The notes beneath the pieces were generated by a model. That model had not been told where the DNA came from. It made no database searches and worked only from the letters and a program-made list of their open reading frames with translations. A stretch of DNA of 64,000 bases from NCBI GenBank assembly GCA_036785375.1, contig JAWMAR010000391.1, positions 992,001 through 1,056,000 on the forward strand. Reading direction: 5' to 3'. Made by a program: the position numbers and the translations under genes. Source of the stretch: Leucoraja ocellata. Its lineage: Eukaryota. Below, piece by piece: positions 6,306-64,000 of the stretch. The stretch's first letter is position 1. Every line of letters starts with the position of its first letter.

Positions 6306-6378
6306 TAATATTTTTTAAACCATTGTATTACAAGAAATGTAATAGTAAATTTTGCCCAAATACAACCTGATAATGACA

Positions 6379-6584
6379 AGGTAGACACAAAATGCTGGAG
6401 TAACTCAGCGGAACAGGCAGCATCTCTGGAGAGAAGGAATGGTTGATGTTTCGGGTCGAGACCCTTCTCAACCTGAAATGTCACCCATACCTTCTCTCCA
6501 GAGATGCTGCCTGTCCCGCTGAGTTACTCCAACATTTTGTGTCTACCTTCGATTTAAACCAGCATCTGCAGTTCCTTCCTACAC
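6379..6584. mobile_element. Fold-back Penelope-pLTR-derived element
   Basis: Inverted arms of about 80 bp; flanking direct repeat ATAATGACA at 6370 and 6585. Confidence 0.75.
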
Positions 6585-9500
6585 ATAATGACACGGTAAT
6601 CTCAGTACTATTGGTTGATGTATAAGTACTAGTCAGAACATTGGGGTTAACTCTGCTGCATGTTTCCACACATGAATGCTCATGATGGAGGAAACTTTAA
6701 GTGGCGGCTGAGGTGGGATGGAGCATTTGTTGGGGGTCTGAATAGAGTGGGAACAAAGAAGAAAAGGCACAATATGCTGGAGTAACTCAGCGGTTCAGGC
6801 AGCATCTCTGGAGAACATGGATAGATGACATTTCAGGTGAAGACCCTTTTTCAGAAGTCAGAATAAAGAAGGAAATTGGTTAACTAGAAAGTTGAAGCTG
6901 CAAAGGTTGTTCATCGCTTTAAGATGTGTCAAGAAATGCACGAGTGGAGAGACGAGAAGTGGAACCTACTTGCAGTATTTGTGCGGTAATGAAGGAATGA
7001 AGACCAGCTCGAATAAGAGGTTGGAAAGGAAGAATAGTCCATCTTAAACTGGATGGAGAAAGACTGCCATTATTAAGCAAGAGCTTGAGAAGGAATGTTT
7101 GTACAGAGAGTGGAGACTTGGATGAATAGCCACTGTGAACCGAGTTTAGAGGGGGTAAAGGACTTTTGGTGAACAGGAGCAAAGGGGAATCTTTACCAAA
7201 AAAATCTAGTTTATTTGATTTAAATTAATCTGCTCAATTTTGTCCATTGAGTCACCTTTATTAATTGCTATAAGAGTATTTTGCATGAATGCTTTTTTGT
7301 AGCCACATAGTTAGAGAAACTATTTCTACAGTGTAGAAACATGCCCTTCAACCCACCACATTTATGCCATCCATCAAGTACATATCAACACTAAATGCAT
7401 TTAGTAGCACTTAGTAATGTTATTTCTATTTGAAAAACTGCTGCTAAATTAGCTGCTAAATTTGTATAAGATAATTATAAGCAGTTGAATAAGGGGTGGG
7501 AATTAATAAGCTTTGGCTTCTTCCTTCTCCTTTTCGGACACATATGATTTAATTTATTTATAAATATTGATTATGACACTTTATAAATATACTTGATTTT
7601 TTTTGTTTTTTTGTATGCTGTTTCACACTTGCTTTTCATTCTTTTATTCTGATCAAAATAAATAAATAAATGCATGTGATTAAACAGACATTCAATTACC
7701 ATTTATTAATGTGATTTCAGGTGTAGAGTCATCCAGTATTACAATGTTCTGCACAGATTATTACCTCCCAATGATTCAAAACCTGTAACAACTACTTTTA
7801 ATAATTATATATAAAACTATAGTAAAATTATTTTTGAGTTTGAAAATGTACCATTATCGAACTAAAACAAACCGTTCCTGTGGGAAGATGGGAGATGATT
7901 TTGTTGCAAACTAGGTTTGCTCACATTTTATTCCAAATTCAGTGTTTGCTCACATTTTTAATGTGATAGTCTGTTCACATTTTTTAATCTCTCTGAAGTT
8001 TGGAGTTTTCTCTTTTAATATATCTAATTTAATTTTAAAAACATTCACGTGTTGTGGGACATCCATTGAAACTGCCCATGTTTTGATTTTAGAAATTGGT
8101 CTCTGAAAGATGAATAACCATTGTAAAATTCTGCATAAATAAGAATAACCAAATGCGCAAGATAATATTTTCATTCAGCCACATCAAAGCACTGGCCTTG
8201 ATAATGTCTCCTGTTTTATTTTGAGGTGATAGCTTTTGTTTGAGGAGGTGGTGGGGACTTTCCTAGAGCTGTGAGATACACAAGAGGATCTGTTGAAAAT
8301 ATTTCATAAGTAGGGTTTGGTGACTATGGATTTGGTACAACATTAAGTTTGTGTCAGGAGTTTGCCAGGTTCTGCGCTGGTGGAAACTCCACACTGAATT
8401 TGGAATAAATAAAATGTACCAAGAAAGGGTCATTTTATTCTGATAAGTTTGAGGTGTTTATATTGGCAACCAAGAACCAAATTGTTTGCTTATGATTTTA
8501 AGTGACTTGCTTCCATGTGCCACCACTGTGTTGGGCCAGGAATGTAATAATTAATGAACAGATTGTTGTGTATGAATGGTACATTACAATATGGTTTCAT
8601 TTAAAACCAATGTCTTTATGTACCTTTCATACACAATTTCTAAAGTGTTATTAAGAATCTTGGCACCGTCTGATGATTGTTGATGGTAATAAGAGTAAAA
8701 CTGTTTTTTTGAATAAAATAGGGATCGGGCAAAGGAATCTGAAATTCCACCAAAACAAAACAAATTATTAAAATCAGAATCTAACAAGTGGCTGAATTGA
8801 AAACTGAAGGAATTATGTTATGTCTGAAGACCCGAAACATCACCCATTCCTTCTCTCCAGAGTTACTCCAGCATTTTGTGTCTATCTTCGAAGTTATGTT
8901 AAACTTTTGTTTAATGTTGGCCTGACTTGATTAGGCAATCCAGTGGCGATAAATCTTCTGGTTTTCTTTGAAATAATTCCACAGGATCTTTTCCATCCAA
9001 CTGAGAAAGCAGATGCAGCTTTGGAGGATGAATGAGATTGCAATCGATGTTAAGTAGAAGCAGATGCAGTTCTGGTTGTTATATCAGAAATAAAAAGGAT
9101 AGGGTTAGCGCAAAGGCTGGAAGAATGTTTACAAGGTTGATTCCAGAAATGCAGAATCATATCTATCGTGAAAAGGGGTGAACAGGTGACTCTTTTGCTG
9201 CATGTAAAGTAAAGACTGAGAGATGACAGAATGCAATGTTCCAAGATTTATGAAGCGTTCTGAGAATCATTCAGTTTTATTTCTGAGCAAAAGCAACACC
9301 AGACACATTCAAAAGAAGGTATTCACCAATAACTTAAACAGGGAATTTCAAGGAAGCTACTTTACCCTGAGATTAATGAGAACAACCAGAGAGCAGTGAG
9401 AACATAGAATATCTTTACCATGGCATAATGAAGGCAAACACATTGATACATGTAAGAGGAAGCCAGATGATCATCTGAAGGCGCAGGAAGTGGGTGGGGA

Positions 9501-12156
9501 TGGTGCTGATAATAAGAGGTGAAATGGACACACGCCCAAGTGAAGCACCCGCACTAGCATGAACTGAACGGACATGATCTATTTCTGAACTATTTCTGTA
9601 CATTGTGGACAGCCCGATTGTAATCATGTAGACTTTCCACTGACTGGATACCATGCAACAAAGAGCATTTCGCTGTAGCTCAGTACACGTGACAATAAAC
9701 TAAACTAAACTATTCTATGTACCCTTGTCCCTGCAGACTGAAAGGGTTAGTTTATATTCAGACAGCTCAGGAAAAAAATTTGACTTGATGACAGGCAAAT
9801 CTATTGTTCCTCTTCCAAAAATATAAGAAAGCACAAGGCCAGGAAATGTTGGCAGAGATGTGACTGTTATGTTAGATTGAATTGTAAATGTGTTCTAAAC
9901 CATGGTGTATCGCACAGATAATTTGGAATCACCTAGTTTGCAGATACCATTGGTCTATCACTTTAGAGGAACCATTCCCACAATCTCAGTTATTTTTTTT
10001 TTGTGATTAAGTTTGATGAATAAATCATTGACATTGTTGTTTATCCAAGTTTTACTGGCACAATGATGTGATTTATTTCTATTATTCCTTTATACCATTT
10101 ATTTTCAAAGTGCTCTGGCGTCCTCTGTTGGTTAGTGACAGGACTGCAAGTAAACAGGTATCCATGTTTTTGAAGTTCCACTCCAATGTGCATGTAGGTA
10201 GCAAACCCCCTAAAACAGGGGGAGCTGTCCATATCCGTTCAGTGCGAGAATCACGTTTGGTCTGTAGATGGCCTGACGACCCTGGAGCCAGTTGACTTCT
10301 GACCAGGTGGGGTATAGAATATTGGAAATGTGACCAGGATTAAGGGAAGGATTTATCTGGTTAACTACTTGTCCTTCTGTAGTCAGTACACACTGGTGAT
10401 TTGCAATGCAGTGAGTGAGAATCCAGTGAGGGATACCATGAGCCATCTAATTAATGCAGATAGGAAACAGTTTTTTGGAGATTGGATCACTGCAAGAAGC
10501 TCACCACAGACAATTACTTCTAGTCCCCGTTCTTTGCTTATTTTTAAAAGATGTATATTCTTTGACATTGGTAGGTCAGATAATCCATGTTCCTCGACAC
10601 TGCACTGCCAGACGTTGGCACTCTGGTGGTTTTTCCAATAGTCCATCATTTGCTACACAGCATGGTGGCCATCGTACATCCTTGATGTTGGTGGATGGTA
10701 ACAAAACAGTCGTGATTGCAGGGCCCAATCCTACTACAAAGATACAGATGGAATAACAAGGAACTACAGGTGCTAGTTTATCAAAGAAAGCCACAAAATG
10801 CCAGAGTAACTCAGCGGGTAAAGGCAGTATCTCTGGAGGAGGTGCACATGGTTGAATTGTGATTGAATGTTGACAGGAACAATGATCACGTTGTGAGTTC
10901 CACAAACTGCAATGCGACTCTTGAAACCACAACAATACCTGGTGGGGCCATAGTGGTGCCAGGAGTTTGGAGCGTGATTAGATGCGTCTCACTGATGAGA
11001 AAGTAAACCAGCCTTACATCACCTTTTCAGTGCGTGAAGTACAATCAGGGTTGGTTCCCATTCGCAGACTGCAGGACAAATTTAATTACTAATCCAACAG
11101 CCTCCTCTCCAGTGCTCTCATGTGACACTTCTAAATTGCCAATTAACTCCTTTACTGGTGTTCAGTAAGGATTTTGTCAGGAATAGTTAGCTCTGGAAGC
11201 GTCGATACAAGAGCTGAATTCCAGAGGGGAGATGATTGCCACGAACATCAGGCTAATATTTAACTGAATGGAAAAATCGTGTCTTTGCAGAACTGAACCT
11301 TAAGGGCAATCCTCGACAAGACGAGAGTCATGGATAGCACCAAAGAAGTTGACTGATTAATGGTGCAATTTATCTCTGCTTCTGGGAGGTGCTGTTGGAG
11401 TCTTTCAAAGCAATGGCGTATACTAGCCATGCCCCATTTTTCACAAATGACCATTCTTCTGCCATATCAGGAAGAGGGTGTTTGCTAATGACTGAGAACC
11501 CTCTGCAGAGTACCAGTTGCAGCTCCTCAGATATTGTAGGAGTTCTATGCCTGCGTGAAGTGGGATTTATCTGCCACTTGTGAGCACACGTAATCATTGT
11601 GCTACACAAGTGACAGATAAGTGACTTTATGTCTCCAAAAGTGTGAATATAATCGCCTTCAAAGGCATTGTTATTGGTAAATCCACAGCCAACAAAATCT
11701 TCAGTGTCATCATTGACCAGAATTGAAACTAGAGCAACCACTTAAATCCTGTGTCTACTATAGGAGGTCAAGGGCTGTGCATCCTGCATCACATAACTTG
11801 TCCCTTGATTCCCCAAAGCCATTTTGCCATTAATAGTACATAAGTCAGGCATCCCAGCAAGTCACTTGAAAGGACATGGTCACTCCTTCATGATCACTGG
11901 GTCAAAGTGTTGAAAGCCCTGTGTAACCACACCGGGAAAATCCTTTCATCACAAGCACTAACATTATCTTGAGGGCGATCAAGAATCAGTTACAAGTGCC
12001 AGCGATGCCTACTTCTCATAAGAATTTAACAAAAGTAATTAAGTTGAGATAATTGTACATTTCCCTGCTTTACGATGATTAACTTCCTGTTTTTTTTTTC
12101 TTCCTTCACCCCATCCCCATCCCCAACCTTGCACCATTTCTCTTCATTTCTCTTAG

Positions 12157-41038
<28,882 letters not shown>

Positions 41039-45594: not shown

Positions 45595-45657
45595 CTCTAA
45601 ACCTCTTGCCCCCTACTTTAAACCCATGCATTAGATAGATCCTATTTTTTTTACTCC

Positions 45658-46522
45658 TTAAGATACAGCACTGAAACGGGTCCCTCGGCCCACCGAGTCC
45701 ACACCGACCAGCGATCCCCGCACATTAACACTGGGAGAATTTTAATTTACACCAAGCCAATTAACCTACAAACCTGTACGTCCTTGGTGTGTGGGAGGAA
45801 TCAAGATCTGTACTCTGATCAAGAAGGCTCATCAGCGTCTCTTCTTCCTGAGGAGACTGAAGAAGGTCCATCTGTCTCCTCAGATCCTGGTGAACTTCTA
45901 CCGCTGCACCATCGAGAGCTTCCTTACCAACTGCATCACAGTATGGTATGGCAACTGCTCTGTTTCCGACCGGAAGGTATTGCAGAGGGTGGTGAAAATT
46001 GCCCAACGCATCACCGGTTCCTCGCTCCCCTCCATTGAGTCTGTCCAAAGCAAGCGCTGTCTGCGGAGGGTGCTCAGCATCGCCAAGGACTGCTCTCACC
46101 CCAACCATGGACTGTTTACCCTCCTACCATCCGGGAGGCGCTACAGGTCTCTCCGTTGCCGAACCAGCAGGTCGAGCAACAGCTTCTTTTCGGCGGCTGT
46201 CACTCTACTAAACAACGTACCTCGGTGACTGCCAATCACCACCCCCCCCCGGACACTTATTATTATTTATTCAAATCGTTTGCTATGTCGCTCTTCAAGG
46301 GAGATGCTAAATGCATTTCGTTGTCTCTGTATTGTACACTGACAATGACAATTAAAATTGAATCTGATCTGAATCTGAATCTGAAACCGAAGATCTCGGA
46401 GAAAACCCACGCGGTCATGGGGAGAACGTACAAACTCCGTACAGACAGCACCCGTGGTCGGGATCAAACCCAGGTCTCCGGCGCTGTAAAGTAGTAACTC
46501 TACCACTGCGCCACCGTGCCGC
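45658..46522 (-). mobile_element. HE1-like V-SINE split by a LINE insertion
   Basis: Tail at 45658-45800 and head at 46384-46522 rejoin into one SINE. Confidence 0.85.
45810..46383 (+). mobile_element. Young Rex1/Babar-like LINE 3' fragment
   Basis: Open frame KKAHQRLFFLRRL...FYRCTIESFLT.CITVWYGNC...LLPSGRRYRS...NSFF; (TGAATC)n tail. Confidence 0.85.
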
Positions 46523-48299
46523 ACCTGGTATGGGGCCATGTTTCCTGCCGTCCACCCTATCTGTGCCCTTCATCGTTTTGTATTACCTGTGAAAGATCCT
46601 CTCTAAACATCCCCTGATCCAACTAAAACAAATTCCAGGAGATGGAAAATGAGAGGAATTATGTAAGTAAAGCCGTTTGAGAATATATTACTAAATTTTG
46701 ATTTTTATTCTTCTAGCAATGATTTAATATAGTGGTCACCTACACTCAGTCTGAAGAAGGGTTCCGACTTGAAACGTCATGTACTCTTTTTCTCCAGAGA
46801 TGCAGCCTGACCCGCTGAGTTGCTCCAGCATTTTTTTGTCCCTATCTGTGGTATAGTTTAGTTTATTATTGTCACGTAGACTGAGGTACAGTGAAAAGCT
46901 TTTGTTTGCCTGTTATCCAGTCAGAGGTAAGACGATACATGAATACAATCAAGCTGTCTACAGTTGGCACAGATAAAGGATAAAGGGCGCAACATAATTG
47001 CAAAATTATGAAACTTAAATTTGCTCTGTGCAAATGGATAGAGTATAGAATAGGAGATTATATCATGCACGCTGGTCTGAGCTCTGTCAGGGGGAGAGAT
47101 TACCAAGGTGAAGACTGCGGAGATGCCGAGGATGTTCTTAAAGCCTCCTTGGGGCGAGAAATCAATTCATTACCTTCTGGGGATCCAATGGCTACTCAAA
47201 GTGGAGGAAGCATGCAGAAGCCAAACTGAAAGGAGTGCACTCTCTGCCTCCCACACGACTCACCCACCCACACACCCTGCCATGCTCCTTTGCCTGCCTA
47301 TGGCAGTGTCTACAGATCCCACATTAGCCTCATCAGGACCACAGAACTGGGCAGGAGGTAAATCATCCTAGAGGAATGCTTTAGAAGACAGGTAGGCAGC
47401 CTTGCAAAAGAGGGTGACATTGAATTTCTCGGCAAACGTCTTTCTGCTGTTAAATTTCCACTAGGATATTTTTTTCTTCAGTGTTGAAAGCAAAGAAATC
47501 TAAAAAGAACTTTGTTAAATTCTTTAACGACTATCTCCTTTAATCGACGGGGTTTGTACTTTGATTAAATGCTGCGGCTCGTGGAACTTAGTTTAATCAG
47601 CGTGGGAGCCTTTCTACCGATGGACAAACAGACATCGGTTTGGGTAACTGCCAGAGCCGGACGGAGCATTGGTCTGAGTAAGTGTGTGCTTCACATTTGC
47701 ATTCTATGTTGGCTATTGTTTTTCACATCAATATGTTAAATGCCTTCACTTGGTTATTCTTGTGTTGCATCTGCGAAAAGCCCTGGAGAAATTCATCTGC
47801 AGCTGGCAGAAAAATGGACCTGTAGCCAACAAACGGACTTTTATTAGGAATGAATGGATTTTTAGTTCGAGTCCAAAAATAGAAGTGACCAGCAGGAGCC
47901 ACTCGAAACCAGAAGAAGCAAAGTGAAGTGGCAATCTATAAATAAAAACAAAGGCACTTCTATACTCTTGTGAAAACCGGGAACCCATTCAGACCGGCGC
48001 ACAAAAAGCTTCACTTATTATGTGGTTAAGGCAGAAGCAGGTTATTCTAAATGAACAATAAAATTACACGAAGCATTGGTTGGCTTCCAGGGTATCACAA
48101 CTGAGCTTTCTGCATGAAAGTTAAATAGCAATGCGTTGCTAGATGTGCCACTCCATGCTGACACCTCATCAATCGAAGGAGAAGCTTCGGTTGAAGATTA
48201 TATATTTTTCTGTTTAAATATGAAATAAGTGGATCAGTTTTCCAAAAACTATTCCTTATTGGAATTTCAGATTGTACAGAAGGCTATAATAAAATATAA

Positions 48300-48515
48300 T
48301 GCCCCTGTCCCACTTAGGAAACCTGAACGGAAACCTCTGGAGACTTTGCGCCCCACCCGAAGTTTCCGTGCGGTTCCCGGAGGTTGCCGGAGGTTGCAGG
48401 TAGTGGAAACAGGTAGGGAGACTGACAAAAACCTCCGGGAACCGCACGGAAACCTTGGGTGGGGCGCAGAGTCTTCATGGGTTTCTGTTCAGATTTCCTA
48501 AGTGGGACAGGGGCA
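48300..48515. mobile_element. PIF/Harbinger-type MITE, second copy in inverted orientation
   Basis: Same TIRs as 18781-19006; TAA/TTA flanks. Confidence 0.85.
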
Positions 48516-51500
48516 TTAATTGTTAATGGACTCAAAATTAGAACGTAGGCACTGACTAATTACATGAAAGATGTTAAGCTGTCCATTGCCTGCTTTGAAC
48601 ACATTTAGATGGTTTAAAATATACTAGGAACATACATTATTCAAAACTTCCATTGGATCACATAATTGGGAATGAGAGAGAATGCTATTAAAAAACATTT
48701 AATTACTGAGCTAAAAGGGCGAATATATCACTCTGTGTGAGATTTAGTTTTCCACACCAGGAGATCACAGCATCTGCAATCTCCAGGACTGCGGCAGCTA
48801 CAACTGGGTCTACTGGTGAAGATAAAGGAAAAATCATCCAGGATTGCAGTTACAGGAGAATCAGGAATAGACCATGCAGTCTCTTGATCCCTCTCTGGCA
48901 GTCTAGCAGATCATGGCTGAGCCTTTGCTTCAACTCCACTACTCGGTGCTGAGTTTATAGGGGCTGGGAAATTCCTAAATTCACAACCCTTTGCATAAAA
49001 ATATTTCTCCCATTTTCAGTTCTAAATGGCTGATATCTATTCCTGATGATATGCTACGAAGGAACTGCAGATGCTGGTTTAAACCGAAGCCCATTCCTTC
49101 TCCCCAGAGATGCTGCCTGTCCCGCTGAGTTACTCCAGCATATTGTGTCCATGCACTGAATGTATCATGCATTCCAAACCCAACCACTAGAGATGGCACC
49201 TTAGGTCAGTGGTGGTGTCAGTCCTCAGATAGAAGTCAGAAGCTGATGGGTTCAAATCCTGGGCACTACCTCTTTTCCGTACAGTACAGTACTTGGAGAG
49301 TTACTCTCCCTTCAGTGTGATGTCAAATCAAGATTGTTTCTAACCCTCTTGGATCCTATAATACTGTTAAGGAGAGAGCAGCAACCTCACTCTGTGTCTT
49401 GGCTGATAATGACCCCTTGGCCATCATCACTAAAAACTCATTACTTGGTCATTTTCTCATTAATGATTCGAGCTGTGGATGTCATATTCCCCTTTTTTTT
49501 TAAACCATGACCACATTCCAAAGTCCTAGTGACTGTAAATTGCTTTGGGGGCAACTCTCAGCCCATGAAATGCAAATATTGTTTTTCTTTATTAACTTTC
49601 AGTCAGCTTAAGAGATGTCCATCAGTGTGACTACATGTTAACACATCACACATTAAAACATTCATTCAGAAAGGACTCCAGAAGAACAATTGGCACGTCT
49701 TAATATTTAAACAAGCAGGCTAAATGCTAGGCTTTAAGAAATCACAATCGGACATCGTCTTTATAATATCCACTGTCATTATTTATCTGAGACCCGGAGG
49801 AAAAGTTTCAGAGACAAGTTATTAATTTGATTGCAGCAAAGTCCACTTCAGCTTGTTCGGCTGAAAAGGTTTTGAGGTGCCTCGTACAACTGAATCTGTT
49901 GGCATGGCTATTGTGTAAATGGTTTCAGGCATTCCAAATGGATGGAGTTGGCAGGCATCCAACTATGTGAGTCATTAGTTTCATTAACATGTGCAACTGA
50001 CAGTTTCCTCAGCAACAATGTGCATTTATGTAATGCGCTCACCATAAAGACAAATTATCAAAACAATCCACAGCAACGCAATCTAAAGTGGACAGTGAGT
50101 CTTAAAAGGATGGTTGAATAATCGCTTGGATAAATGAACCACACAAAGGAGAAGAGAGCTCTTTACTTTGGAGATGACATTTCAGAATGCAGTGCCAGGC
50201 TTGCTGAAGGCACAAATGCCCATCGTGGGTGAGCTGGAGAGATGTACATTGTTGGAATGGGAGTGGGCAGCTGGAGGAGATGAGAGAGACGAGGAGAATG
50301 AACTCACAAAGCCATTGTAACATGACGACTATTGGAGTGGGTAAGTGGAGTGGGTAAGTGGTAGGTTGATGAGAATAAAGCTGATTTACTCAGAAGACGT
50401 GGACAGGATATAGGCATTAGTGTTCTGAATACTTAAACATTTTGAGGATGGAGGATAAGAGTCTGGATGGGACAGCTTGAAATTGGTGTCCGGATGTAAC
50501 AAAGGTACTTGGGAAGAAGGAATTCAACTCAAATGACTGGGTGGAGAAGAGGCGGCAACGTTATGAAGATGTACACGGGAACTCTTTTCCTGCTGGTGGG
50601 AACAAGATACACTGATACACAGATTGCAAACTGTGTAGTTCGGTGCAAGAACACTACAGTACATCTTCCCTGGAGCAGCACACAGAGTGTACACAACATC
50701 TACACAGTGTATTCCCTCATGCAGTACACATTCCCTGGGCTGGTACACACAGTGTATTCTCTGGGCCAGTGTACACGGTTGCTGCCATGGAGGGAGGGAC
50801 AGGTTGCAACGAGTGGAACAGAGATCCACAATTTACAGGGAGAGGTGCAGAAGGGCTCGTCAGGGAGATGCACATGCCACAAGCAAGATCCTGCAGGGGT
50901 GGATGGGGGCAGAGGGAGCGCCAGGAAACCTACCAGGCCACCATAAGATGAACATTGTAGAAGAGTCCAGTTGTCTCCTGCTGGAAGGAGAAGAACAACT
51001 CGGCAGATAAAATATTACCAGAAACGTTACAACCTCATAAAAAGGTGAGCTGCAGATAATTAAAATGATTAATAACTTGTGTATTTAATCAGCTCCACCG
51101 TGTATCAGGCCCTTGACCTGTGGAGGTTGGTGTTGATGCAGTCAGTCAACCTGCGTGCAATATCCTCTGGAGTCCAGCACTTCAGGTGATGCCACCTCTA
51201 TGGATGAACCAGCCAAACGGTGATCGGAGCCTGACTGCTCAACAAAGCAGGCGAATGAAGAGGCTCATTCCACACTGGCAAAGGAGAATGAACCTCTGAT
51301 TGACTTGTTCATTCCCTGCAGATTCATCCTGCAGCCAGGATCACGTGGTTTGTCCGTGCTCAGCGGCTTCATACACTATGAAAGGTTCTGCACAAACCTT
51401 CTTCCCTGAGGAGGTCCAGTGGCCTCCAACAAATAGTAAGAGGAACAGGTCAAATGATGACCAGGAGTCTCCAGTCACACATCACATGTTGTCTGGCAGC

Positions 51501-52093
51501 AGGGTTTGAGACAGAAATGCCATTTGACAGCAGTGAGGTTGACTCAACAAATCATCTTAGCATAACCCCCTGCTTACCACAATGGGGGCAGGGAATAAAA
51601 TAGTTTGTCCCAGATATACTGGTTGGTAGAAGGGTCTCGATCCGAAATGTCTCCTATTCCCTTTCTCCAGAAACGTTGTCTGACCCGTTGAGTTACTCCA
51701 GCTTTTTGTGTCTATCTTCTTGTCCCAGACATAGCTAGTTGGACAACTACCATCAGTGGTTATCCGTCTCGTATTTCTAAGTCAGAAGAACTGAAAATGT
51801 TCCAAATCTAAAGAAATTGCTGGAAATACACAGCAGGTCAGTCGTGGTTTCACCCTTGCAGAAACCCCCCCCCCCCATCAATCTCCTGCTCTAACAAACT
51901 TCTCTTATCCCTTTCCCAGTAATGACGACTGGTCTGGTCTTTCATCTGAGACATTCACACTGTTTCTATTCCCACAGATGCAGCCTGACCTGCTGGGTAT
52001 TTCATGCATTTTCTGCTTTTTTATCCCTAGTCTGTAGTCTGAAATGGAAAAATTAAAAAATCTGGTATATTCACTCTGAGAATAATGTAAGCA

Positions 52094-52303
52094 NNNNNNN
52101 NNNNNNNNNNNNNNNNNNNNNNNNNNNNNNNNNNNNNNNNNNNNNNNNNNNNNNNNNNNNNNNNNNNNNNNNNNNNNNNNNNNNNNNNNNNNNNNNNNNN
52201 NNNNNNNNNNNNNNNNNNNNNNNNNNNNNNNNNNNNNNNNNNNNNNNNNNNNNNNNNNNNNNNNNNNNNNNNNNNNNNNNNNNNNNNNNNNNNNNNNNNN
52301 NNN
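52094..52303. other. Assembly gap (210 N)
   Basis: Run of n. Confidence 1.
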
Positions 52304-52379
52304 CACCTCTCAAACTACAATCCCCCATACTCAACCACCATTGACTGCCCAAACCGTCCACTTTCCACATAGAGGCTTA

Positions 52380-53660
52380 AGGTTGTACAGCACAGATAAA
52401 GCCCCCTTTCCCCATGATGTCCATAGTGACCTTTTTGCCCCTCTGCAAAAATTCCTTTTGCCTGTATTAGATCTGTTTCCTTCTATGCCTTGACTATTTG
52501 AACGATTGTCTAAATGCATCATAAACATATTATTACATTTGACTTCACCACCTCCACTTTCAGGGAACTTGAACCATGGGTTGCAGTGTTCATCAATATT
52601 CCATGGTGCCCTCCCATTTACTATTGTCCTACTCCTATTTGACTTCCTAAAACATATCACCTTGCACTTGTCAGGATTAAATTGCATCGCCAGTGCTGAT
52701 CTATATGCTGCTGTAGCCTTAGACAGCTTTCCTCACAATCCACAACACCACGAACATTCGAGTGATCCACCAACTTATTGATCATACTTCCTACATTCGT
52801 ATCTCAGTCATTAAAATACATCACAAACAACGAAGGTCCCAGCACTGATTCTTGTAGTACACCAGTGATATCAGACTTCAAGTCAGAGAAGAATCCTTCC
52901 ACCACAACCCCCTGCCTCTTAGAGTCATAGGGCCAGGTTCTTTGGCCCAACTCATCCTTGCTGACCAAGATGTCCCATCCAAACTAGACCCATTTGCCCA
53001 CATTTGGATGGTATCTATCTAAAGCTTACCTATCCATGCACCTATCCAGAAGTCTTTAAAATGCTATTAATGTACCTGCCTCAACCACCTTCTGGCTGCT
53101 CATTCTGTGTACGTATATCCACCTCTCTCTCTCTCCGTGAAAAGGTTGTTGTTGACTATTGGGTATTTGGGGACCACTAGTACATTCCCAACAAGATGAT
53201 CATCCCCTTTTAATTTTTTAGCTCCACCCATACAGATGCAATGGATGAGTATTTGTCAATGTTACCTTGGACTACTGTTGTGATGTTCTCCTTAATCAAT
53301 GAAGCAACACCTCTCCTTTCTTTCTGCTGCCTCTGTCTCACCTGTGACACCTGTACCCTGGAACATTAAGCTGCCAGACCGGTCCCTCTCATACTCATTA
53401 ATGTCCCAGTCCCACATATTTATCGAGGCCCTGAGTCTATCCGCCTTACCTATCCTGTCCGCAGAACTTGTTGCCTTTGTCTTCTGAATCAACTTTGAGC
53501 CTCCCATTTGCCTCACTATTTGGTTTGGATCTTGTTCCCCTGTTCCCCTGTCGATCTAGTTTAAACCCTCCCTAGGAGCACGTTATGGTTTTGGTTCCCC
53601 TTCAGTTCAGGTGCAACCTCTAGAATAGCTCACTTCTGCCCCAGATGAGATCCTAATGGC
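52380..53660 (-). mobile_element. Degenerate CR1-like LINE fragments (endonuclease, RT and tail pieces)
   Basis: MQFNPDKCKVICF; endonuclease N-terminal remnant LRASINMWDWDI; CR1 tails at 52380 and 52920. Confidence 0.65.
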
Positions 53661-55493
53661 CCAAGAGCCAATTATGTATCTTTGTGTTGTTTGACATTAA
53701 ATCTGTGGATCAGGCAGCATCTCTGGAGAAACTGGAGAGGTGTGGTTTTGGGTCAGGATCCTTATTCAGATTTATTATTGGTCTACACTGAACATGTCTC
53801 ACAAATATAGAGTAAGGCAATAGCATGATACACCTTCATCTTGAATTTTAAGCTGATTCCTCTTCATTCCTGTACTTCTCAGTCTTCCAGTCTCAGAGCT
53901 GGCTACTGCTATCCTGTTGTTGTTTTCGTCATCAGTGTTGACTGATCTTCAGGGAGTGCTGCTGGGATATGTGAACTTGTCCACAACTGAAAACCTCTGC
54001 CTATTCACAGGGACGTTTGGTTCTGTGTGGGGGGTGTTTGGTGCAAGTTGTTGCATAACATGAGACTATATTGATTGATCTGCCGTATTTATCTTTAAAT
54101 GATCAATTAGTACGATGGCTTAATCTGAAACACAACTGGAGTTTGTTCATCAGGAATGTGTGTGAACTTCATTATTTTGAAAATATATCCCCTCCATGCA
54201 TTTCCCTCTCCACTGCATGACAATTTGATCAATATATTGTGACATCCATCACTCCTTAATTCACCAATGGTTAAAATGGTGAACATTTGCCAACAATGCT
54301 CAGAAAAAAATGCCATTTTGTGCCGAGGCCAGAGTGCTTCATCAGGAAACTAGAGAATTTGTGCAGGAAGTTATTTAAATAATCCGAATAGAAATTAATT
54401 TAGCATTCTGACAGATACAATAGTAGTGAACTTGCCAAGTAGCATGCAAAGGGAAAATGATCTGGGCTCTCTTAGCTCTCTACTAGTGTAACGTGGTGAT
54501 GTTGAAATGGCGTGGGTATCGGTGACAATGGATTTAGGAGAAGTGTCTCCGCAAGATTCTTGATTACTACGGGTGTCAGAGGTTACGGGGAGAAGGCAGG
54601 AGAATGGGGTTAGGAGGGATAGATAGATCAGCCATGATTGAATGGCAGAGTCGACTTGATAGGCCTATTTCTACTCCTATTCCTTATGACCTTATGACAT
54701 TGGTTTATTGGCTGCCCTTTTCTCAGCTGAAGGATGAAGCTTCCTTGTCTCTCTGCTCGTTTTGTGCAACTGTGTCCAGGTCCCGTCTGCTTTTGCTCCT
54801 GCTGACTTCTGTCACCAGATTAGGCAACAGGATATTGAAGCCTTTGCACCTGTTGGCTCCTGGACTGATGAAGACGTCAGGATCTCTCTTTCAGGAGACC
54901 AGCAGCAATCTCCATCATTACCCCAGTACACACCTGGCCAGAATTGTCAGCGCACTGAGAAATATGGCTGAGATCAGTGATGACCACCTGGAATGAACTC
55001 GTGGACAGGAAATATAGTTACTGTGACCTTTACCTGAAGGTAGCCTTCAGTCAGGCAGGAGAGCATGACCGAAGGTCATCGGCAGGACTTCATCCATCTC
55101 TGTCATTATGGCCTTTGAGCCTGTGAATGCATTGCTCATCAGGGAGGTTCAGGTGCAAACGTGGTGCCCCTGAAGGCTCTCTGTGTGATCTTACAGATGT
55201 ATATTTCAGTGCCTACTGCACTTGGACCCAGAGCCTCCATCTGTCACCTGCCCTACTTATCCTGGAGCCTCCCGTAATGAACTGCTGTCATTAACATTGC
55301 TGTCTGGGATACGATTTGAAAGAGTACGCAGCAGCTAAGGAGTGCCACAAACATGTGTTGGTGATTTCAGCATTCTAGACTTTAAAAGGTGCTTCAGGAA
55401 TTTGTCCTCAGTTCAAAACCACCCATGTGACATCTCCCAAAGTCCGGAAATCAAGAACCTAGCTCCAAGTTCTCCTGAGACTGTTAGACAATG

Positions 55494-55779
55494 GTTTAGT
55501 TTAGTTTAGAGATGCAGCGCGGAAACAGGCCTTTCAACCCACCGAGTCTGTACCGACCAGCAACCCCTGCACATTAACATCATCCTACACACACTAGGGA
55601 CAATTTACACTTAAGCCAATTAACCTACGTCTTCGGAGTGTGGGAGGAAACCAAAGATCTCGGAGAAAACCCATGCGATCACGGGGAGAACATACAACCT
55701 GCGTATGGAATTGGGATCGAAACCGGGTCTCCGGCGCTGCAAGCGCAGTAACGCAGCAACACTACTGCTGCGCCACCGT
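55494..55779 (-). mobile_element. HE1-like V-SINE
   Basis: Reverse complement of 21415-21738; (TTTAG)n. Confidence 0.85.
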
Positions 55780-56559
55780 AAGAAGGTCGTTGCTTGGATT
55801 TATGCAGATGTGGGCTGCCATTTACATTGTACAATTACTAATGTTTTTTGCAATGTGTCTGATGTGAGGAAAAACATCAGGCAGGCTCACCTTAAATTGC
55901 CTGATCTAATTTTATAGTCAACATAATCTAATCCAGAAAAAGTGGCCACTCTAAAATATTTATGGTCCCATTGTGTTGAAACAAAGAGTGTTAAAGTTTC
56001 AATTTCAATGCAATGCGATGGTGCTAAATCAGATGCACAACCTCATGGGTTCTTAAGAGTTTGATAGAACTGACTCTCCATTGCAATTCCTCATTGCCGA
56101 TGTTCTGGTGGGTTTTGTGCATATTGCTCTCTCTGCTCTGAAGGTTCTGGGTTCAAGCCCCACTTCAGGTACATCAACACAACCACCGCTGAGTTTCTAA
56201 TGCCCTAATTGTTCTCTGAGGTGTCATCAAGTGTTCGATGGCACAGTTTGGAAGAAATGGGGAGTTATTTGCTGTGTTCTGGGTAACATTGATCCCTGAA
56301 TCACTAAAACATATACGTAGTTGGGTCATGATCACATTGCTGTCTGCAATAATTGGCTGGGTACAAAGTTGCTGCCTGTATTTTCTACAACAGTGACCAC
56401 AGTCGTTTGTTGCCTGCAGAATGTTCTGTAATTCCATGTAAGTGGAGGCCTCTATTATATACTTTTTACTCTGCAGGTTAGAATAGCAACATGAACTATC
56501 TCATACAATGCAGTATATAATAGCATTACTGTACCTATGCCAAATTGAGGATTTGCCAT

Positions 56560-56830
56560 TGAGATACAATGTGGAAACAGGCCCCTTGGCCCACTGAGTC
56601 CGAGCCAACCACCAATCACCCTGTACACTAGTTCTACCCTATAGTCTACAGACATTTTACAGAAACCAATTAACCTACAAACCTGCACTAATGTAGGTGG
56701 AAACTGGAGCACCCATAGAAAGCTCACAGGGTCAAAGAGAGAACCTGTAAACACCATACAGACAGCACCCCTAGGCAGGATCAAACCTGGGTCTCTGTTG
56801 CTGTAAGGCAGCAACTCTACCACTGTACCA
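56560..56830 (-). mobile_element. HE1-like V-SINE (older)
   Basis: Same layout, more diverged. Confidence 0.78.
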
Positions 56831-57530
56831 CATTGGTTTAAATATAAGAGGAGAATAGTAAGGATGCAGAGAGAATGGGGGGAAAAAGGTGAATGGAAAT
56901 GATGTGTAAACTCTCAAACCCAAGACAGTTTCTGTGGAAACAGGATCATCACTCTACCAGAAAGCACATCAAATGGCAAACGCTCATGACGTTATCCGAT
57001 GGACACCAGATATATTTTGCACAGTGAATTGATGTAATGAATGAAATACCTGTTCCTCAATCTCTTCAGCTGTAATAACCCTAAAATGGCTAAATCTAGT
57101 ACAAGTGGACGAAGCATTTAAATGAGGGCAATTATATATTTCCTGGGGCTCTTCAACCAACTGCAGCTTCTGCCCCTGTATCTTCTGCAGATGTCCCAGC
57201 TACTCAATCACACGTTGACACTAAAATTACTTTTGATTGCATTCATTTTTAAGACGTGCAAAACTGAAGGGATGTCGTTAATTGAAACCTGTAATGTATT
57301 ATGTAAAATAATTAACATTGACTTTTCAATCCCAGTATTTAACAAAAGTAGATCAGTCAAAATATACAAACATGGAAAAACTGATTTGTAACTTTAAAGA
57401 TGATTTCTTCAATGTAGGAAATTTATATTTTGAATACTGTGGCCTCAAAATATTGCGGGATGTTTAATATTATTTTTCACCGAATATAGGTTTTATATGA
57501 GATGTTAGAGAAGTAATTATATAAGTAATC

Positions 57531-57973
57531 AAAGTTTGCAGAGACTGAAGGTGGGGTATAACCATGCAATGAGAACACTGCTAAGGAGACCTAGATGGTG
57601 TAGTGCTAGTAACATGTTTGTGGCTGCAGGAGTCAGTACTTTAGAAGCTATCCTAAGAAATCATATGTATAAATTCATTTGCAGGATAAATGACTCTAAA
57701 AATGTGCTTATTGTGGCCTTGTCAAACATAAGGGTTAGCACTACACGCTACGAATCCCAACTGTGGAGACACTGGTATCGTTGTCTCGTTGTAGGACATT
57801 GATCATTCTTTTAATCTGGATTTTTAATTCATGTATTGTGGTTTTTTTTGGTTTTTTTAATATATAATTTATGATGCTTTCATAAGTGGACTAAGATTTT
57901 ATATGTACTTTTAATATGCAATGCATTTTTATGTAATGTTGCCCCTTGTCTGGACCTTGAGTCCGTAACAAAG

Positions 57974-58009
<36 letters not shown>

Positions 58010-58016
58010 GTTATTA
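57531..58016 (+). mobile_element. RTEX-like LINE 3' fragment with (TTA)n tail
   Basis: LKVGYNHAMRTLLRRPRWCSASNMFV...LRNHMYKFICRINDSKN matches the recalled RTEX C-terminal pattern. Confidence 0.65.
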
Positions 58017-59129
58017 TCATATCTTCAAATGTTAAGATTTCAGTTCTTTGAATGCAGCATCACCGCTGAAGACAGCTGTTTCCTTTGACTTTCTCACTTT
58101 CTCTGATTTAATTTAGCACTAAACCGCATTCTACCCCACTTGAGTGTGGACAATAAATGTACAATTCTGAAGTGAAGGGGGTGCCAGAACGTATTCAAAA
58201 TAGAATAACATTTATTCTCCTTCAGCCACCTGCCTCTGGAAGGCGCCAGGAAGCAGCGCTGCGTATGGTCACTTAAGGGTACACATCAGTTGTAAAGCTT
58301 GAATGGGTTCTCTTTTAAATTGTGCAGGTTATTGTCCAGCTGCTGTATGTTTTCATTGTTAATTATCAAATGTTAATTAAAAATCCTGAAACTTTGTGCA
58401 GAGTGGTTTCTTACGTTTCCACTTTAATTGTCCAGTCAACTTTGAAGCAGCTCTGCTTGGTTGATTAAGTGGTGTGGCAGGCAGTGTAATTATAACCTGC
58501 GTCTGTGGAAACAGTTGCAATGGAATTTTTCTGTGGGCGGGCGTGAGGGCTTAGTGATGAGGGAATTAGTTCTGGTCACCAGGACAGCAAGACACCACTT
58601 AACTTATGCAGTAACAAAATTAAATTAAAAGAGTCTAAGTTTGATCTGGCTCTTTTTAATCTGTTGTTTTCTTCAGCGTCACCAGAATTTCTGCTAAAAC
58701 AGACATCTGATCCAGTGGAAAATTATAAAAAGTGGAAAATAATTAACATAGGCTTGATGCAGTAAGTTAACACACAGGCTTCTCACCTCTGTGACCTATG
58801 TACCGATCTAGCCTAGCCTGAAGTCACTAAAAGTCTTCTCCCACTACCAGCTGTGGGGTTGCTATCTGAAACAAATTTAACTCAACCCAACGTAGCAATC
58901 CAACTCTGAACGACAATCCAACTTGCTGCTGAGGGAATGACAACAATTTGTAATGACATGTTAAAAGACAAGATATCAAGAGTTGTTTTTTAAATGTGCT
59001 CTAGAAATAAAAGTGACGACTTGATATCAAAAGACACCTTTTTGAATTTTGGATGGAGGCCTGTTGTTGGATCGGGGTGACTTGGAAGTTCCTAATAATG
59101 CTCTTGAAAGCCAAAGATAGAAACATGTC

Positions 59130-59255
59130 GTTTAAGAAGGAACTGCAGATGCTGGAAAATCGAAGGTACACATAAATGCTGGAGAAACTCAGCGGGTGCA
59201 GCAGCATCTATGGAGCGAAGGAAATAGGCAACGTTTCGGGCCGAAGCCCTTCTTC
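59130..59255 (-). mobile_element. Penelope-pLTR single arm
   Basis: Near-identical to the left arm of 45343-45594. Confidence 0.75.
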
Positions 59256-60850
59256 CATTCTTAAGTCACAAGATTTGTTGGACACAAGATTTTATTTACC
59301 TTGCAGACATATTTATATCAATTCCCTCTGGTTATTCTCCTTTGAAGTACTTAGGGTTGTTTTTACTGGTTAAGGATACTACATAAATACAAGTTGTTGC
59401 TGTCTTTTGTGAGGCCGAACGTGGAATGTCGGAGGACATGAGTTTTATGTCAATCCTATAATGTACCTTGTTATATTTTAATCAAAGCTGGGTGCCCATA
59501 AAAAGCTGTGCATTTAAAAGAATCTTTACAGTCTACAAACTTTATCTGATTTTGTTAAAATTTAACTGAGGTCTTGGATTTCAGTATTATCCAATATGCC
59601 TCCAAGCACATCCTTCAGGGGATTTATTGGAATGCCAAACGGTTGGCCAATTTGCTATACCAATTGCATTTCTGTACTGCAATTAGGAGAACACACTAGT
59701 TCTCACTAGTTTTTCGAAAAGATAAACTGGGCATATGCTATGTATCCAATGGTTCCATAAATACAACCATGACATGCCGTGGCTGCCTATCTAGGTATCT
59801 AATGGAAAGTGGGCCATTGGTGGACAATAATGTGCCAATTGAGTACCAGTGAGACTCTTCCCGAAACATTGATTACTTGCAAAATTGGTCTTAAATTGAG
59901 AATTTGATTTAGAGAAGGAGGTGGTATTAACAGGAATTTCTGGCATTCAAGTCAGAAATTCCTGAATACAATCAGCGACCTGGCTGGTGTCAGAAGATGG
60001 TCACAGATAGGACTCCAAATTCATTTTAACAGTGGTCTTGCTGTGTTTCGATTCCTATTATCCTCACAAAAATGTTATGATGTGACTTTACCATTCAAGC
60101 CAGAAAAAAAAGTTATATAGTAAGTAAAATCAATATTTTATTGACTATATTTTATTTAGCATTGAATACGAAGTTCATTTGAATTTCAACATTTTGTGTA
60201 ATGATTTCAATTTTCACTTGATCCAATTAATGATGTAACTAACAAATACAGCTATTATTGATAGTAATATGATGCAATATCATTCAAAATATGTCACGGG
60301 CCACAAGAGTTTCATTCTCCGTGGTTTTATAAGAAACCCATCAGAAAAAAATGTTAATTGAGCAAGTACTAAGATTAAAAAATGTTTAAATGCAAATAAT
60401 CATACATTTATTTTTAATATAACGCAATTTTAAACAGATGTATTCTCAGCACTTAATAAATCCATTGGTGCAGCACAGTAAATAAAAAACTACTAGAATG
60501 CTGAACCAGTCAAGACAAGCTCATGGACTTGCAGGCAGATTATTGGCCTGCTTTGGAAATTGACTTTATGCTGGTTGACAGGGAGAGGAGGGATAATGGG
60601 AGAGTCCTCACATTGGCAGTATCTGACCAGTCATAACCCAAGCATTAATTTTAAGAGACTGGAAGTGTATATAAATGATTTCGATTCTAGATATCTAAGT
60701 CTGCCATGACATAAACATACGAGGCAAGTATAGATGAAAATATTAAATTTCAAAAATACATTAATTGATTAAGTGAATTGACAATTGTAGGAAATGGATT
60801 TAAATAAAAGCCAGTATGAAATCATTCACTCATTCATAAACAAAAGTGAA

Positions 60851-61012
60851 ATAATAAATATAATGAAAATGTACTGGAGATACTGGTTTAAAGCAAAGAT
60901 AAACACAAAATGCTAGGATAACTCAGCAGATCAGGCAGCATCTCTGGAGAAAATGGATAGGTGACGTTTTAGGTCCGGACTTCAGTCTGAAGAAGAGTTC
61001 TGGTCAACTATC
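60851..61012. mobile_element. Penelope-pLTR-derived insertion with a short inverted piece
   Basis: Flanking 16-bp direct repeat CATAAACAAAAGTGAA at 60835 and 61013. Confidence 0.7.
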
Positions 61013-61250
61013 CATAAACAAAAGTGAAGTATTTTCTAAATGATTAAAATGTGGAAATAGTGAAGTTTCAAATATAGATCATTAAAATATTATGACTGGT
61101 CAATGGGAATGAGGTGCAGTTGTAATATGTTCCAGCTATCATGGTTTGATCCTGCATGCCCAGGAATTTGAAGTGTTGACTCCACCATCATCCCATCGAC
61201 ATAGACAGATTTGTGGGTCCTCATCCTTTCTCTTCCAAAGTCCACAATCA

Positions 61251-61413
61251 GTTCGGGTCAAGACCCTTCTTCAGACCAGCTAGTCAGGAGAAGGGTCTCG
61301 AGCCGAAATGTCACCCAATCTTTCTCTCCAGAATTGCTGCCTGTCCTGCTGAGTTACTCCAGCATTTTGTGTCTACCTTTGATTTAAACCGGCATCTGTA
61401 GTTCTTTTCCTAC
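61251..61413. mobile_element. Fold-back Penelope-pLTR element
   Basis: Centre cttcagac-cagcta-gtcaggagaag. Confidence 0.75.
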
Positions 61414-62378: not shown

Positions 62379-62563
62379 GTACACAAAAATGCTGGAGAAA
62401 CTCAGCGGGTGCAGCAGCATCTATGGAGCGAAGGAAATAGGCAACGTTTCGACCCGAAACGTTGCCTATTTCCTTCGCTCCAGAGATGCTGCCGCACCCG
62501 CTGCGTTTCTCCAGCATTTTTGTCTACCTTCGATTTTCCAGCATCTGCAGTTCCTTCTTAAAC
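62379..62563. mobile_element. Young fold-back Penelope-pLTR element
   Basis: Near-perfect hairpin; 14-bp flanking direct repeat ACTGTAAATTGGAG at 62365 and 62564. Confidence 0.82.
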
Positions 62564-63819
62564 ACTGTAAATTGGAGAATTAGAGCAAGGTTATTTATCA
62601 CAAGGATGTTAGAGGAAATGAACAGGTTTTATAACTGATAAAGGTACTTGATAAACAGATAACATGTGTCTGATAAATTCTAAGATACTTATTAGATCTA
62701 CATAATATATCAGACTGTGACATTGGTTACAATATCAATGTTTGTTTCTTGATTTGATTACTTCCCTTAAACAGAAAACAATCATTGCTTATTCCATGCA
62801 ATGTGTTGGAGGTTCAACCGTGTGAATAGCTTTTATCTCTTGCAAAAACATTTGGTCTATTACTCTGCTGTTTGTGGCATTGGGTCTCTTACTAATAATT
62901 GGATATATATGTCAGAGGATTTGTGAATTTTGTCTGCGATCTGCTATGAAAATGTTGATTTGAACAGCTGAGGAACTGGCATGCTTTGAATGGGCTTGAT
63001 AATTTCCACTTACTTTCTGTTTGAGGACAAGCGTCTGCAGAAATTGGTGAGAAGACAAATCAAGCTAATTTTGCAGTGCTGTAACTTGAGCCTCACTCAA
63101 TGAAGTGGCAGAATCCCTGGAACTCAGAATGCATTCTTCTGCAGGGGCATTTGACCCATTGCGGATTCTTTAAGCCATTGAACACCCGTTTGGAATCTTG
63201 CTTACTTTTGGTAATCAGCAGAAACCTCAGCAGACACATGAAACATTATTACTGGGTTCCACAACTTTGCTGGCTCTGAACCCACACAAAAATGGTTAGA
63301 CAACTTCACCAGGAGGATGCAAGTAGCTGATTTCATAACTATAGTTTCATTTTGAAAGGGGATCAAAGTATTGATTTTTCACCAAAAATGTAGTTAAGTC
63401 TTAATTTTCCGTGCTGAGTTAATTATATTTTAATGAGGTCAGAGAATAAGTATTGCAAGAATTTTTAGCTCAATTCCTTTGCTTACTTACTCTTACTAAG
63501 AGTGGTAACTTATCTGGAGTGAAATTCTCAAAGTGAAAATTCCTTTGTGATTAGCACTAGATTTTCATGACGAAGCACTCTTTCACCCCAAGCTTGAAAG
63601 CCACATGAATGATTTTTCCAACCATTGTCATTGCACAGCAGTCAGGAGTTAAAAACTGCAGAATTGCTATTGTCAATTGTAGGATTCCCATTAATTCTGC
63701 AATTCAAGTCTGCATCCTTCTTTGACTCTTTCCTCTTTGACTTTGACCTGCTACCAATAAAAATCAATGTAAGTTTGAGAAAAGCATCTCATATTCTGAC
63801 TGAAGATAGCAGCAGCACT

Positions 63820-63983
63820 GGCAGCATCTCTGGAGAGAAGGAATGGGTGACATTTCGGATCAAAACTCTTCTTCAGACTAGCTAGTCAGAAGAAGGATCT
63901 TGAGCCGAAATGTCACCCAATCCTTCTCTCCAGAGATGCAGCCTGTCCTGCTGAGTTACTCCAGAATTTTGTGTCTATCTTCT
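63820..63983. mobile_element. Fold-back Penelope-pLTR element
   Basis: Centre cttcagac-tagcta-gtcagaagaag. Confidence 0.75.
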
Positions 63984-64000
63984 AAATTCTAGCGAGTACA

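What the first reader, a model, noticed from the sequence alone, without database searches (positions are those of the whole stretch)
6370..63983. Dense family of tiny fold-back Penelope-pLTR insertions behaving as single mobile units
Seen: about nine 160-330 bp palindromic elements (6379, 14536, 20028, 35905, 36419, 45343, 61251, 62379, 63820) plus many single arms. All are built from the sequence that ends the Penelope GIY-YIG remnant at 22586-22668. Four insertions have long flanking direct repeats: 9 bp (6370/6585), 8 bp (14528/14861), 16 bp (60835/61013) and 14 bp (62365/62564). One arm is usually longer and the inversion point varies. Known: Penelope elements can carry inverted pLTRs. 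Inference: these are MITE-looking but RNA-derived, non-autonomous hairpin retroelements made by strand inversion during insertion, possibly an under-described class in batoids.
Basis: partly seen in the sequence, partly recalled or inferred. Interest (0 to 1): 0.7.

Follow-up and report, generated by a model that had tools for sequence, protein, structure and literature searches.

The report
Two-armed Penelope end hairpins
These short mirror-image repeats are single insertions built from two head-to-head copies of the end of a Penelope-type jumping gene, a layout already known; their one-sided tail and either-way centre suggest that each was likely made afresh by copying started from both cut ends of the host DNA, not spread as a mobile family of its own.

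Summary
The hairpins are real: 9 head-to-head pairs by profile search in the window plus 2 lopsided ones, and all four target-site duplications (TSDs) are exact. The arm is the 3' terminal repeat (pLTR) of an RT/GIY-YIG Penelope-like element. In 814 kb of this genome, 70 fold-backs occur (about 85 per Mb). None has two tails. TSDs peak at 14-16 bp, and a related species has an empty site for 62379, so each is one retro-insertion, not a DNA MITE. They are mostly not copied as units: junctions vary, two odd junctions are unique, and the central loop lies either way round relative to the tail (104 vs 69 copies). Best model (inferred, 0.6): both nicked target strands prime cDNA at the two pLTR start sites that bracket the known 'tail', and the two cDNAs are joined head to head. 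The layout is the published inverted-pLTR-plus-tail insertion in minimal form; the gain is a large natural data set on an unsolved step of Penelope insertion. This scan reported the same structure and a similar reading on other DNA of this genome.

The parts
21737..22054 (+). Broken GIY-YIG endonuclease remnant of a Penelope-like element
   Evidence: tblastn with the RT/GIY-YIG ORF of locus L123; translation
22589..22666 (+). Old tail-less pLTR arm downstream of the GIY-YIG remnant
   Evidence: profile hit, model 9-96, score 46
6379..6584 (.). Fold-back: tail-less arm (-) then tailed arm (+); TSD 6370-6378 / 6585-6593
   Evidence: partly deleted on the other haplotype between its left arm and the arm at 6764
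14536..14860 (.). Fold-back: tailed arm (-), tail-less arm (+), both reaching into the 3' UTR upstream of the pLTR; TSD 14528-14535 / 14861-14868
20026..20236 (.). Older fold-back: tailed arm (-), tail-less arm (+); no clear TSD
35895..36141 (.). Older fold-back with 37-nt spacer
36419..36607 (.). Fold-back: long tail-less arm (-), 25-nt filler, short tailed arm (+); unique junction
45344..45595 (.). Young-subfamily fold-back with the hotspot junction, plus a tandem third arm (45525-45595)
49055..49152 (.).
60851..61012 (.). Tailed arm (-, 60868-60982) plus about 30 nt of a + arm; TSD 60835-60850 / 61013-61028
61249..61409 (.). Lopsided fold-back (30-nt left arm, tailed right arm); shares junction and private alleles with 63810
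62379..62563 (.). Young-subfamily fold-back with the hotspot junction; TSD 62365-62378 / 62564-62577; empty site in a related organism
63810..63985 (.). Fold-back with a perfect central palindrome; left arm internally deleted; neither arm tailed
6764..59257 (.). Single arms at 6764, 8828, 10754, 16978, 25249, 44976, 46747, 51623, 51971, 53698, 59131
   Evidence: profile hits

Best explanation
Each hairpin is one insertion of two head-to-head copies of a Penelope-like element's terminal repeat (pLTR), likely built on the spot when both nicked strands of the target each primed a cDNA (twin priming). Shown: pLTR origin, single event with a 10-17 bp TSD, at most one tailed arm, variable junctions, central loop in both orientations. 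Inferred: the Penelope RT/GIY-YIG protein nicks both strands about 8-15 bp apart; one 3' end starts reverse transcription at the tail-less site and the other about 33 nt further 3' at the tail end; both cDNAs stop early, often near the CAGT|CTGAAGA start of the ribozyme motif (possibly the RNA 5' end); their free ends are joined by microhomology (hotspot: the TTTCG-nnn-CGAAA palindrome in the ribozyme's stem II region) or with filler bases. The two arms usually come from the same sub-lineage, so probably from one RNA or one source locus. If only one end primes, a single arm results. The hairpins are mostly dead ends, not a self-copying family.
For: pLTR origin: (14 same orientation, 0 opposite, 6 none, of 20 remnants); L123 carries the young arm with tail right after an RT (YIDD) plus GIY-YIG frame, whose longer homologues carry PF00078 and in part PF01541. 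Arrangement: neighbouring arms within 30 bp are head-to-head in 60 cases, tail-to-tail in 5, direct in 8 (814 kb). One-tail rule: 0 of 70 fold-backs have two tails; of 41 with both ends classifiable 35 are tail/no-tail and 6 no-tail/no-tail, against about 11 two-tail pairs expected from single arms (91 tailed: 84 tail-less; P about 2e-6). TSD: 16 of 41 census elements vs 0 of 196 shuffled flank pairs; 81 of 110 young hotspot elements, mode 14-16 bp, vs 3 of 330 shuffled (the 110 include about 10 duplicates). Empty site: a contig of organism E joins 62348 to 62560 with 11 letters between. Loop orientation: 104 vs 69 genome-wide exact matches for two 95-nt patterns differing only in loop direction; 35 vs 14, 1 ambiguous, in 50 contig-1 copies; no reversed triplet among 18 unfolded source motifs. 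In 15 of 35 tail/no-tail elements the tail-less arm reaches 10 nt or more further 5' than the tailed arm, so neither arm can be a copy of the other. 14 of 70 have both arms running to the pLTR start, abutting or with filler (counted by eye). Overlap between TSD and element averages 1.44 nt at the tail-less end and at least 1.02 at the tailed end in 55 elements, against about 0.35 by chance (arithmetic, not simulated). In vitro, the anole element nicks and extends both strands, starts at two sites that bracket the tail, and is predicted to be a dimer (PMC11167929).
Against: No experiment here; all mechanism is read from genomic fossils. A pre-formed hairpin intermediate cut once at each of the two sites would also give one tail and both loop orientations. 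Arms are strongly concordant for sub-lineage alleles (48 of 49 young tail-less arms carry the allele fixed in the tailed arm, which is 30% among contig-1 arms), which snap-back copying also predicts. Two local pairs (61251/63820; two elements at C391 820-821 kb) share a junction and private alleles, so some junctions are inherited or converted. 25 of 41 census elements have no clear TSD. The pile-up of 5' ends (164 of 319 arms at model positions 1-8) is bounded by the model's start; only 9 of 100 single arms gave TSD-defined ends, 6 of them at positions 4-12. A transcription start there is untested.
Confidence: 0.6

Rival explanations
1. Pre-formed hairpin intermediate: a transcript or cDNA self-primes at an internal palindrome, and the endonuclease then resolves the two ends, one at each side of the tail, before or during integration (close to the self-priming and EN-resolution ideas in PMC3846280 and PMC8557442).
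For: Explains arm concordance, the palindromic hotspot junction (4,885 exact matches, control 0), the one-tail rule and, if the two cuts are assigned at random, both loop orientations.
Against: Ends scatter over several bases and overlap the TSD by 1-5 nt at both sides, as in target priming. 14 of 70 junctions join two full-length 5' ends, abutting or with filler. Some arms differ at a diagnostic site (4 of 21, two of them duplicates of one insertion). In vitro the two tail boundaries are RT start sites primed from nicked target DNA (PMC11167929).
Confidence: 0.17
2. Snap-back: only the tailed end primes; that cDNA folds back and copies itself; later deletions and loop flips blur the picture.
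For: Arm concordance; loop from the tailed arm is the majority (104 of 173; 35 of 50); long palindromes are deletion-prone (own knowledge).
Against: 40% reversed loops among copies with a mutation-free 95-nt stretch; tail-less arm longer in 15 of 35; 23 of 26 allelic pairs have no gap of 4 nt or more at 1-2% haplotype divergence (low power); fixed tail-less end with target overlap is unexplained.
Confidence: 0.1
3. Self-propagating non-autonomous hairpin retroelement: whole fold-backs are transcribed and re-inserted as units.
For: Thousands of copies share one junction; 61251 and 63820 share a junction and four features found together in only 2 of 222 arms, with unrelated flanks.
Against: The shared junction is a microhomology hotspot made in both orientations, which unit copying would not flip; unusual junctions of 14536 and 36419 are unique; re-copying would not give a fixed target-primed-looking end on both sides; the two related pairs are only 0.85 and 2.6 kb apart, and recombination between nearby arms is seen, so gene conversion may explain them.
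Confidence: 0.1
4. DNA MITE, or two independent insertions side by side.
For: Small size and terminal inverted arms.
Against: TSD 8-18 bp and variable; asymmetric ends; frequent single arms, three of them haplotype-polymorphic with 14-16 bp duplications; 60 head-to-head vs 5 tail-to-tail; both arms absent together at the empty site.
Confidence: 0.02

Closest known systems
Inverted-pLTR insertions of endonuclease-bearing Penelope-like elements (Adineta Pen2/Pen2a, PMC3846280; general scheme in PMC8557442, PMC8969392)
   Same: Inverted 5'-truncated terminal copy joined head to head, palindrome at the junction, 30-40 bp tail at one end only, TSD of 8-10 bp or more.
   Different: Here the insertion is reduced to the two pLTR arms (about 80-320 bp, no ORF) and is very abundant (about 85 per Mb). 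Published interpretation is self-priming; the statistics here favour priming from both target ends.
Anole Poseidon element PAc in vitro (PMC11167929)
   Same: Two internal RT start sites bracketing the tail; both strands nicked and extended; hammerhead motif in the pLTR not needed for insertion.
   Different: The main text read does not describe joining of the two cDNAs into an inverted product; different host and probably a different clade (not tested).
Non-LTR retrozymes / solo pLTR derivatives (bioRxiv 10.64898/2026.07.22.740005)
   Same: Short non-coding pLTR-related units with a type I hammerhead motif that depend on PLE enzymes.
   Different: Retrozymes are defined as direct tandem repeats with an intact ribozyme in each unit; these are inverted pairs, and the hotspot junction removes the CUGAAGA box from both arms.
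LINE-1 twin priming (recalled, no call)
   Same: Second target strand primes a second cDNA, giving an inversion joined by microhomology inside one TSD.
   Different: In L1 the inverted piece is a different, upstream part of the RNA and starts at variable places; here both arms cover the same sequence and start at two fixed sites.

Membership tests
EN+ Penelope-like element insertions | Arm is the 3' terminus of an element encoding RT plus C-terminal GIY-YIG | tested here: met
   L123 ORF then arm with tail; GIY-YIG E 0.008, below Pfam cutoff; homologues with PF00078/PF01541; 14 vs 0 orientation
EN+ Penelope-like element insertions | Inverted 5'-truncated copy adjacent at the 5' end (head to head) | tested here: met
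   60 vs 5 within 30 bp
EN+ Penelope-like element insertions | 30-40 bp tail at one end only | tested here: met
   ends at model 96-109 and 129-135; 0 of 70 with two tails
EN+ Penelope-like element insertions | Variable TSD around the whole unit | tested here: met
   empty site
EN+ Penelope-like element insertions | Minimal hammerhead motif in the pLTR | tested here: inconclusive
   CUGAAGA, stem, GAAAC-GUH seen in the sequence and matching the description in PMC4209133; no Rfam hammerhead hit in the window; cleavage not testable
Neptune clade | RT phylogeny and Zn-finger-like motif between RT and EN | not tested
   A CxxxxCxxC-type motif precedes the GIY-YIG; its link to Neptune is recalled; no tree built
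DNA MITE | Fixed short TSD and symmetric TIRs | tested here: not met
   TSD 8-18 bp, asymmetric ends
Non-LTR retrozyme | Direct tandem units each with a complete hammerhead | tested here: not met
   direct neighbours within 30 bp only 8 vs 60 inverted; hotspot junction lacks the CUGAAGA box
Non-autonomous retroelement family copied as a unit | Dispersed copies inherit one junction and both ends | tested here: not met
   exception of two local pairs; only three window junctions were searched genome-wide

The most novel reading that the evidence does not exclude
The Penelope protein routinely primes both target strands on one RNA, one at each of the two start sites that bracket the tail, so the inverted pLTR and the one-sided tail of all PLE insertions are a single twin-priming signature; this genome holds roughly 3 x 10^5 minimal products that record it, and a minority pass their junction on to daughters.
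Probability: 0.35. Interest if true: 0.65.

Novelty: new variant of a known kind. Interest (0 to 1): 0.36.

Why it matters
How Penelope-like elements make their inverted repeats and one-sided tail is described as unresolved (PMC8557442, passages read). This genome offers about 280,000-310,000 ORF-less fold-backs (extrapolated from 27 in 334 kb and 43 in 480 kb to a 3.44-Gb assembly that holds duplicate haplotypes) whose tail rule, loop orientation and end overlaps give specific predictions for the existing in vitro system. For annotation, they look like MITEs or miRNA hairpins (weak Rfam miRNA matches) but are retrotransposon stubs. The architecture itself is not new.

Tried and rejected
Ribozyme cleavage as the turning point: no peak of 5' ends at the predicted cut (15 of 319 arms at model 29-36, like neighbouring bins); rejected. 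miRNA genes: Rfam matches are all below gathering score and reflect the hairpin alone. Haplotype-polymorphic fold-back: none among 27 in 315 kb aligned; three polymorphic single arms found. A hybrid element (young tail-less arm, old tailed arm shared with a neighbour 0.85 kb away) was first read as proof of two RNA templates; it is ambiguous because its tailed arm is about 7% from the neighbour's and conversion fits too, so it is not counted as evidence. 'Tail-less primer runs first on the RNA': 15 vs 5 (P 0.04) but the hotspot loop comes more often from the tailed arm; not adopted. No RNA holder was listed for the stretch; expression, small RNA and editing remain untested. Empty sites for 6379, 14536 and 20028 in more distant organisms remain untested. 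No intact full-length element was found among 12 longest-ORF loci. Literature searches found no paper describing ORF-less pLTR fold-backs as a dominant class or twin priming for PLEs; Repbase, Dfam, Arkhipova 2006 and Evgen'ev & Arkhipova 2005 were not available, and no supplements were read, so absence from print is not established. PMC9977147 passages were irrelevant.
Full report
Observation. The listed palindromes exist. A profile built from 30 long arms finds 33 arms in the window and 9 head-to-head pairs; two more pairs have a second arm of only about 30 nt. The four direct repeats are exact. The window lies on contig C391 of a 3.44-Gb assembly; contig C603 is the other haplotype, about 98% identical.

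What the arm is. The window's 21737-22054 stretch is a broken GIY-YIG frame; a protein search from a related copy gave 172,294 first-look candidates. Locus L123 has an RT frame (YIDD) running into GIY-YIG, a pyrimidine-rich UTR and then the young arm with its tail; its homologues carry RVT_1 and, in part, GIY-YIG, while Pfam on the fragment itself gave only a sub-threshold GIY-YIG hit. In 814 kb, the first arm within 700 bp downstream of a GIY-YIG remnant is in the same orientation in 14 of 20 cases, opposite in 0, absent in 6. The arm is therefore the pLTR. It begins with a CUGAAGA-stem-GAAAC-GUH motif like the minimal hammerhead of PMC4209133 (passages and section 4 read); Rfam did not score it.

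Census. I took 334 kb of C391 and 480 kb from 28 stretches of other contigs chosen by coordinate: 354 arms, 70 head-to-head pairs within 150 bp, 214 other arms. Within 30 bp, 60 neighbours are head-to-head, 5 tail-to-tail, 8 direct. Arm 3' ends fall at two places about 33 nt apart. No fold-back of 70 has two tails; of 41 with both ends classifiable, 35 pair a tailed with a tail-less arm and 6 have no tail; 29 had a degraded end and were left out of that count. About 11 two-tail pairs would be expected from single arms.

Single events. TSDs were found in 16 of 41 census elements (0 of 196 shuffled) and 81 of 110 young hotspot elements (3 of 330 shuffled; mode 14-16 bp; about 10 of the 110 are duplicates). 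After removing end overlaps the stagger is mostly 8-15 bp (55 elements). A contig of organism E runs from 61385-62348 into 62560-63833 with 11 letters between, an empty site for 62379, whereas contigs of organisms B, C and D end inside the element. Three single arms are present on one haplotype only, with 14-16 bp duplications (one complex), so the family was active recently; no fold-back among 27 is insertion-polymorphic.

Not a unit-copied family. Junctions vary widely. One junction has 4,885 exact matches, control 0, but it sits at a palindrome already present in the pLTR, and its 3-nt loop faces either way relative to the tail: 104 vs 69 for two patterns differing only in loop direction, 35 vs 14 with 1 ambiguous in 50 contig-1 copies; unfolded sources showed no reversed triplet (0 of 18). 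Copying a hairpin as a unit would keep that orientation. The odd junctions of 14536 and 36419 match fully only their own alleles among 40 and 37 scored candidates. Against this, 61251 and 63820 share a junction and four features seen together in only 2 of 222 arms, with unrelated flanks, and a second local pair exists. Local re-copying or gene conversion can explain both; recombination between nearby arms did delete part of 6379 on the other haplotype.

Mechanism (inferred). Snap-back of the tailed cDNA predicts the loop always in sense and the tail-less arm never longer at the 5' side; both fail (reversed loops in 29-40%; tail-less arm 10 nt or more longer in 15 of 35, tailed arm in 5). Both ends overlap the TSD by more than chance (means 1.44 and at least 1.02 nt). 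In vitro the anole element nicks and extends both strands from two start sites that bracket the tail and is predicted to be a dimer (PMC11167929, parts 1-2 of 4, the whole main text). The simplest reading is twin priming: one target end starts at each site and the two short cDNAs are joined. Arms nearly always share sub-lineage alleles (48 of 49 in the young sets; both-arm carriers 38 vs 12.7 expected in contig-1 copies), so the two templates are usually the same RNA or come from the same source; 4 of 21 differ at one diagnostic site (two are duplicates). Many arms start at the beginning of the ribozyme motif (164 of 319, bounded by the model; 6 of 9 TSD-defined single arms at positions 4-12), not at the predicted cut; a transcript start there is a guess. 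A pre-formed hairpin cut at the two sites remains a serious rival.

Comparison. PMC3846280 (part 1 of 5 and passages) describes inverted pLTRs, a 31-bp one-sided tail, 8-10 bp TSDs, junction palindromes and solo pLTRs, and proposes self-priming. PMC8557442 (passages) and PMC8969392 (passages) give the inverted truncated copy and tail as typical and the mechanism as open. The retrozyme preprint (part 1 of 5 and passages) covers direct tandems only. Six searches found no description of ORF-less fold-backs as a dominant class or of twin priming in PLEs, but Repbase, Dfam, older subscription papers and supplements were not seen. L1 twin priming and the Neptune label are recalled. Earlier notes of this scan (76 fit the look-up, 8 shown), read after I had stated my reading, reach the same identification on other DNA of this genome; they are not independent support.

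Verdict. Real, abundant, correctly traced to Penelope ends; a minimal, high-copy variant of a known insertion layout, of moderate interest for what it says about the insertion mechanism.

Noticed in passing
window 18782-19005 and 48290-48525: A second palindromic family unrelated to the pLTR, with about 85-96 nt terminal inverted arms and TA-rich flanks; looks like a true DNA MITE; not classified.
   Followed up: no
window 23352-24365: 337-aa open RT frame (PF00078, E 4e-13), CR1/L2-like by recall; about 1 kb here is missing on the other haplotype.
   Followed up: no
window 6412-6810 vs C603: 400-bp deletion on the other haplotype between two same-orientation arms, i.e. recombination between pLTR copies.
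   Followed up: partly
window 61249-61379 and 63850-63980: Two fold-backs 2.6 kb apart are each other's closest relatives genome-wide among scored candidates and share junction and private alleles; local re-copying or gene conversion.
   Followed up: partly
L089:8638-8898 and 9490-9725: Two insertions 0.85 kb apart share an unusual ribozyme-less tailed arm found nowhere else, but their tail-less arms are of different subfamilies.
   Followed up: partly
window 45810-46383 and C603 near window 34420: Haplotype-polymorphic insertions of other retroelements (587 bp and about 2 kb), showing several recently active families.
   Followed up: no
window 21420-21733, 55495-55779, 56663-56831: Abundant SINE-like repeat with an AAACT-type tail, one copy inserted just upstream of the GIY-YIG remnant.
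   Followed up: no
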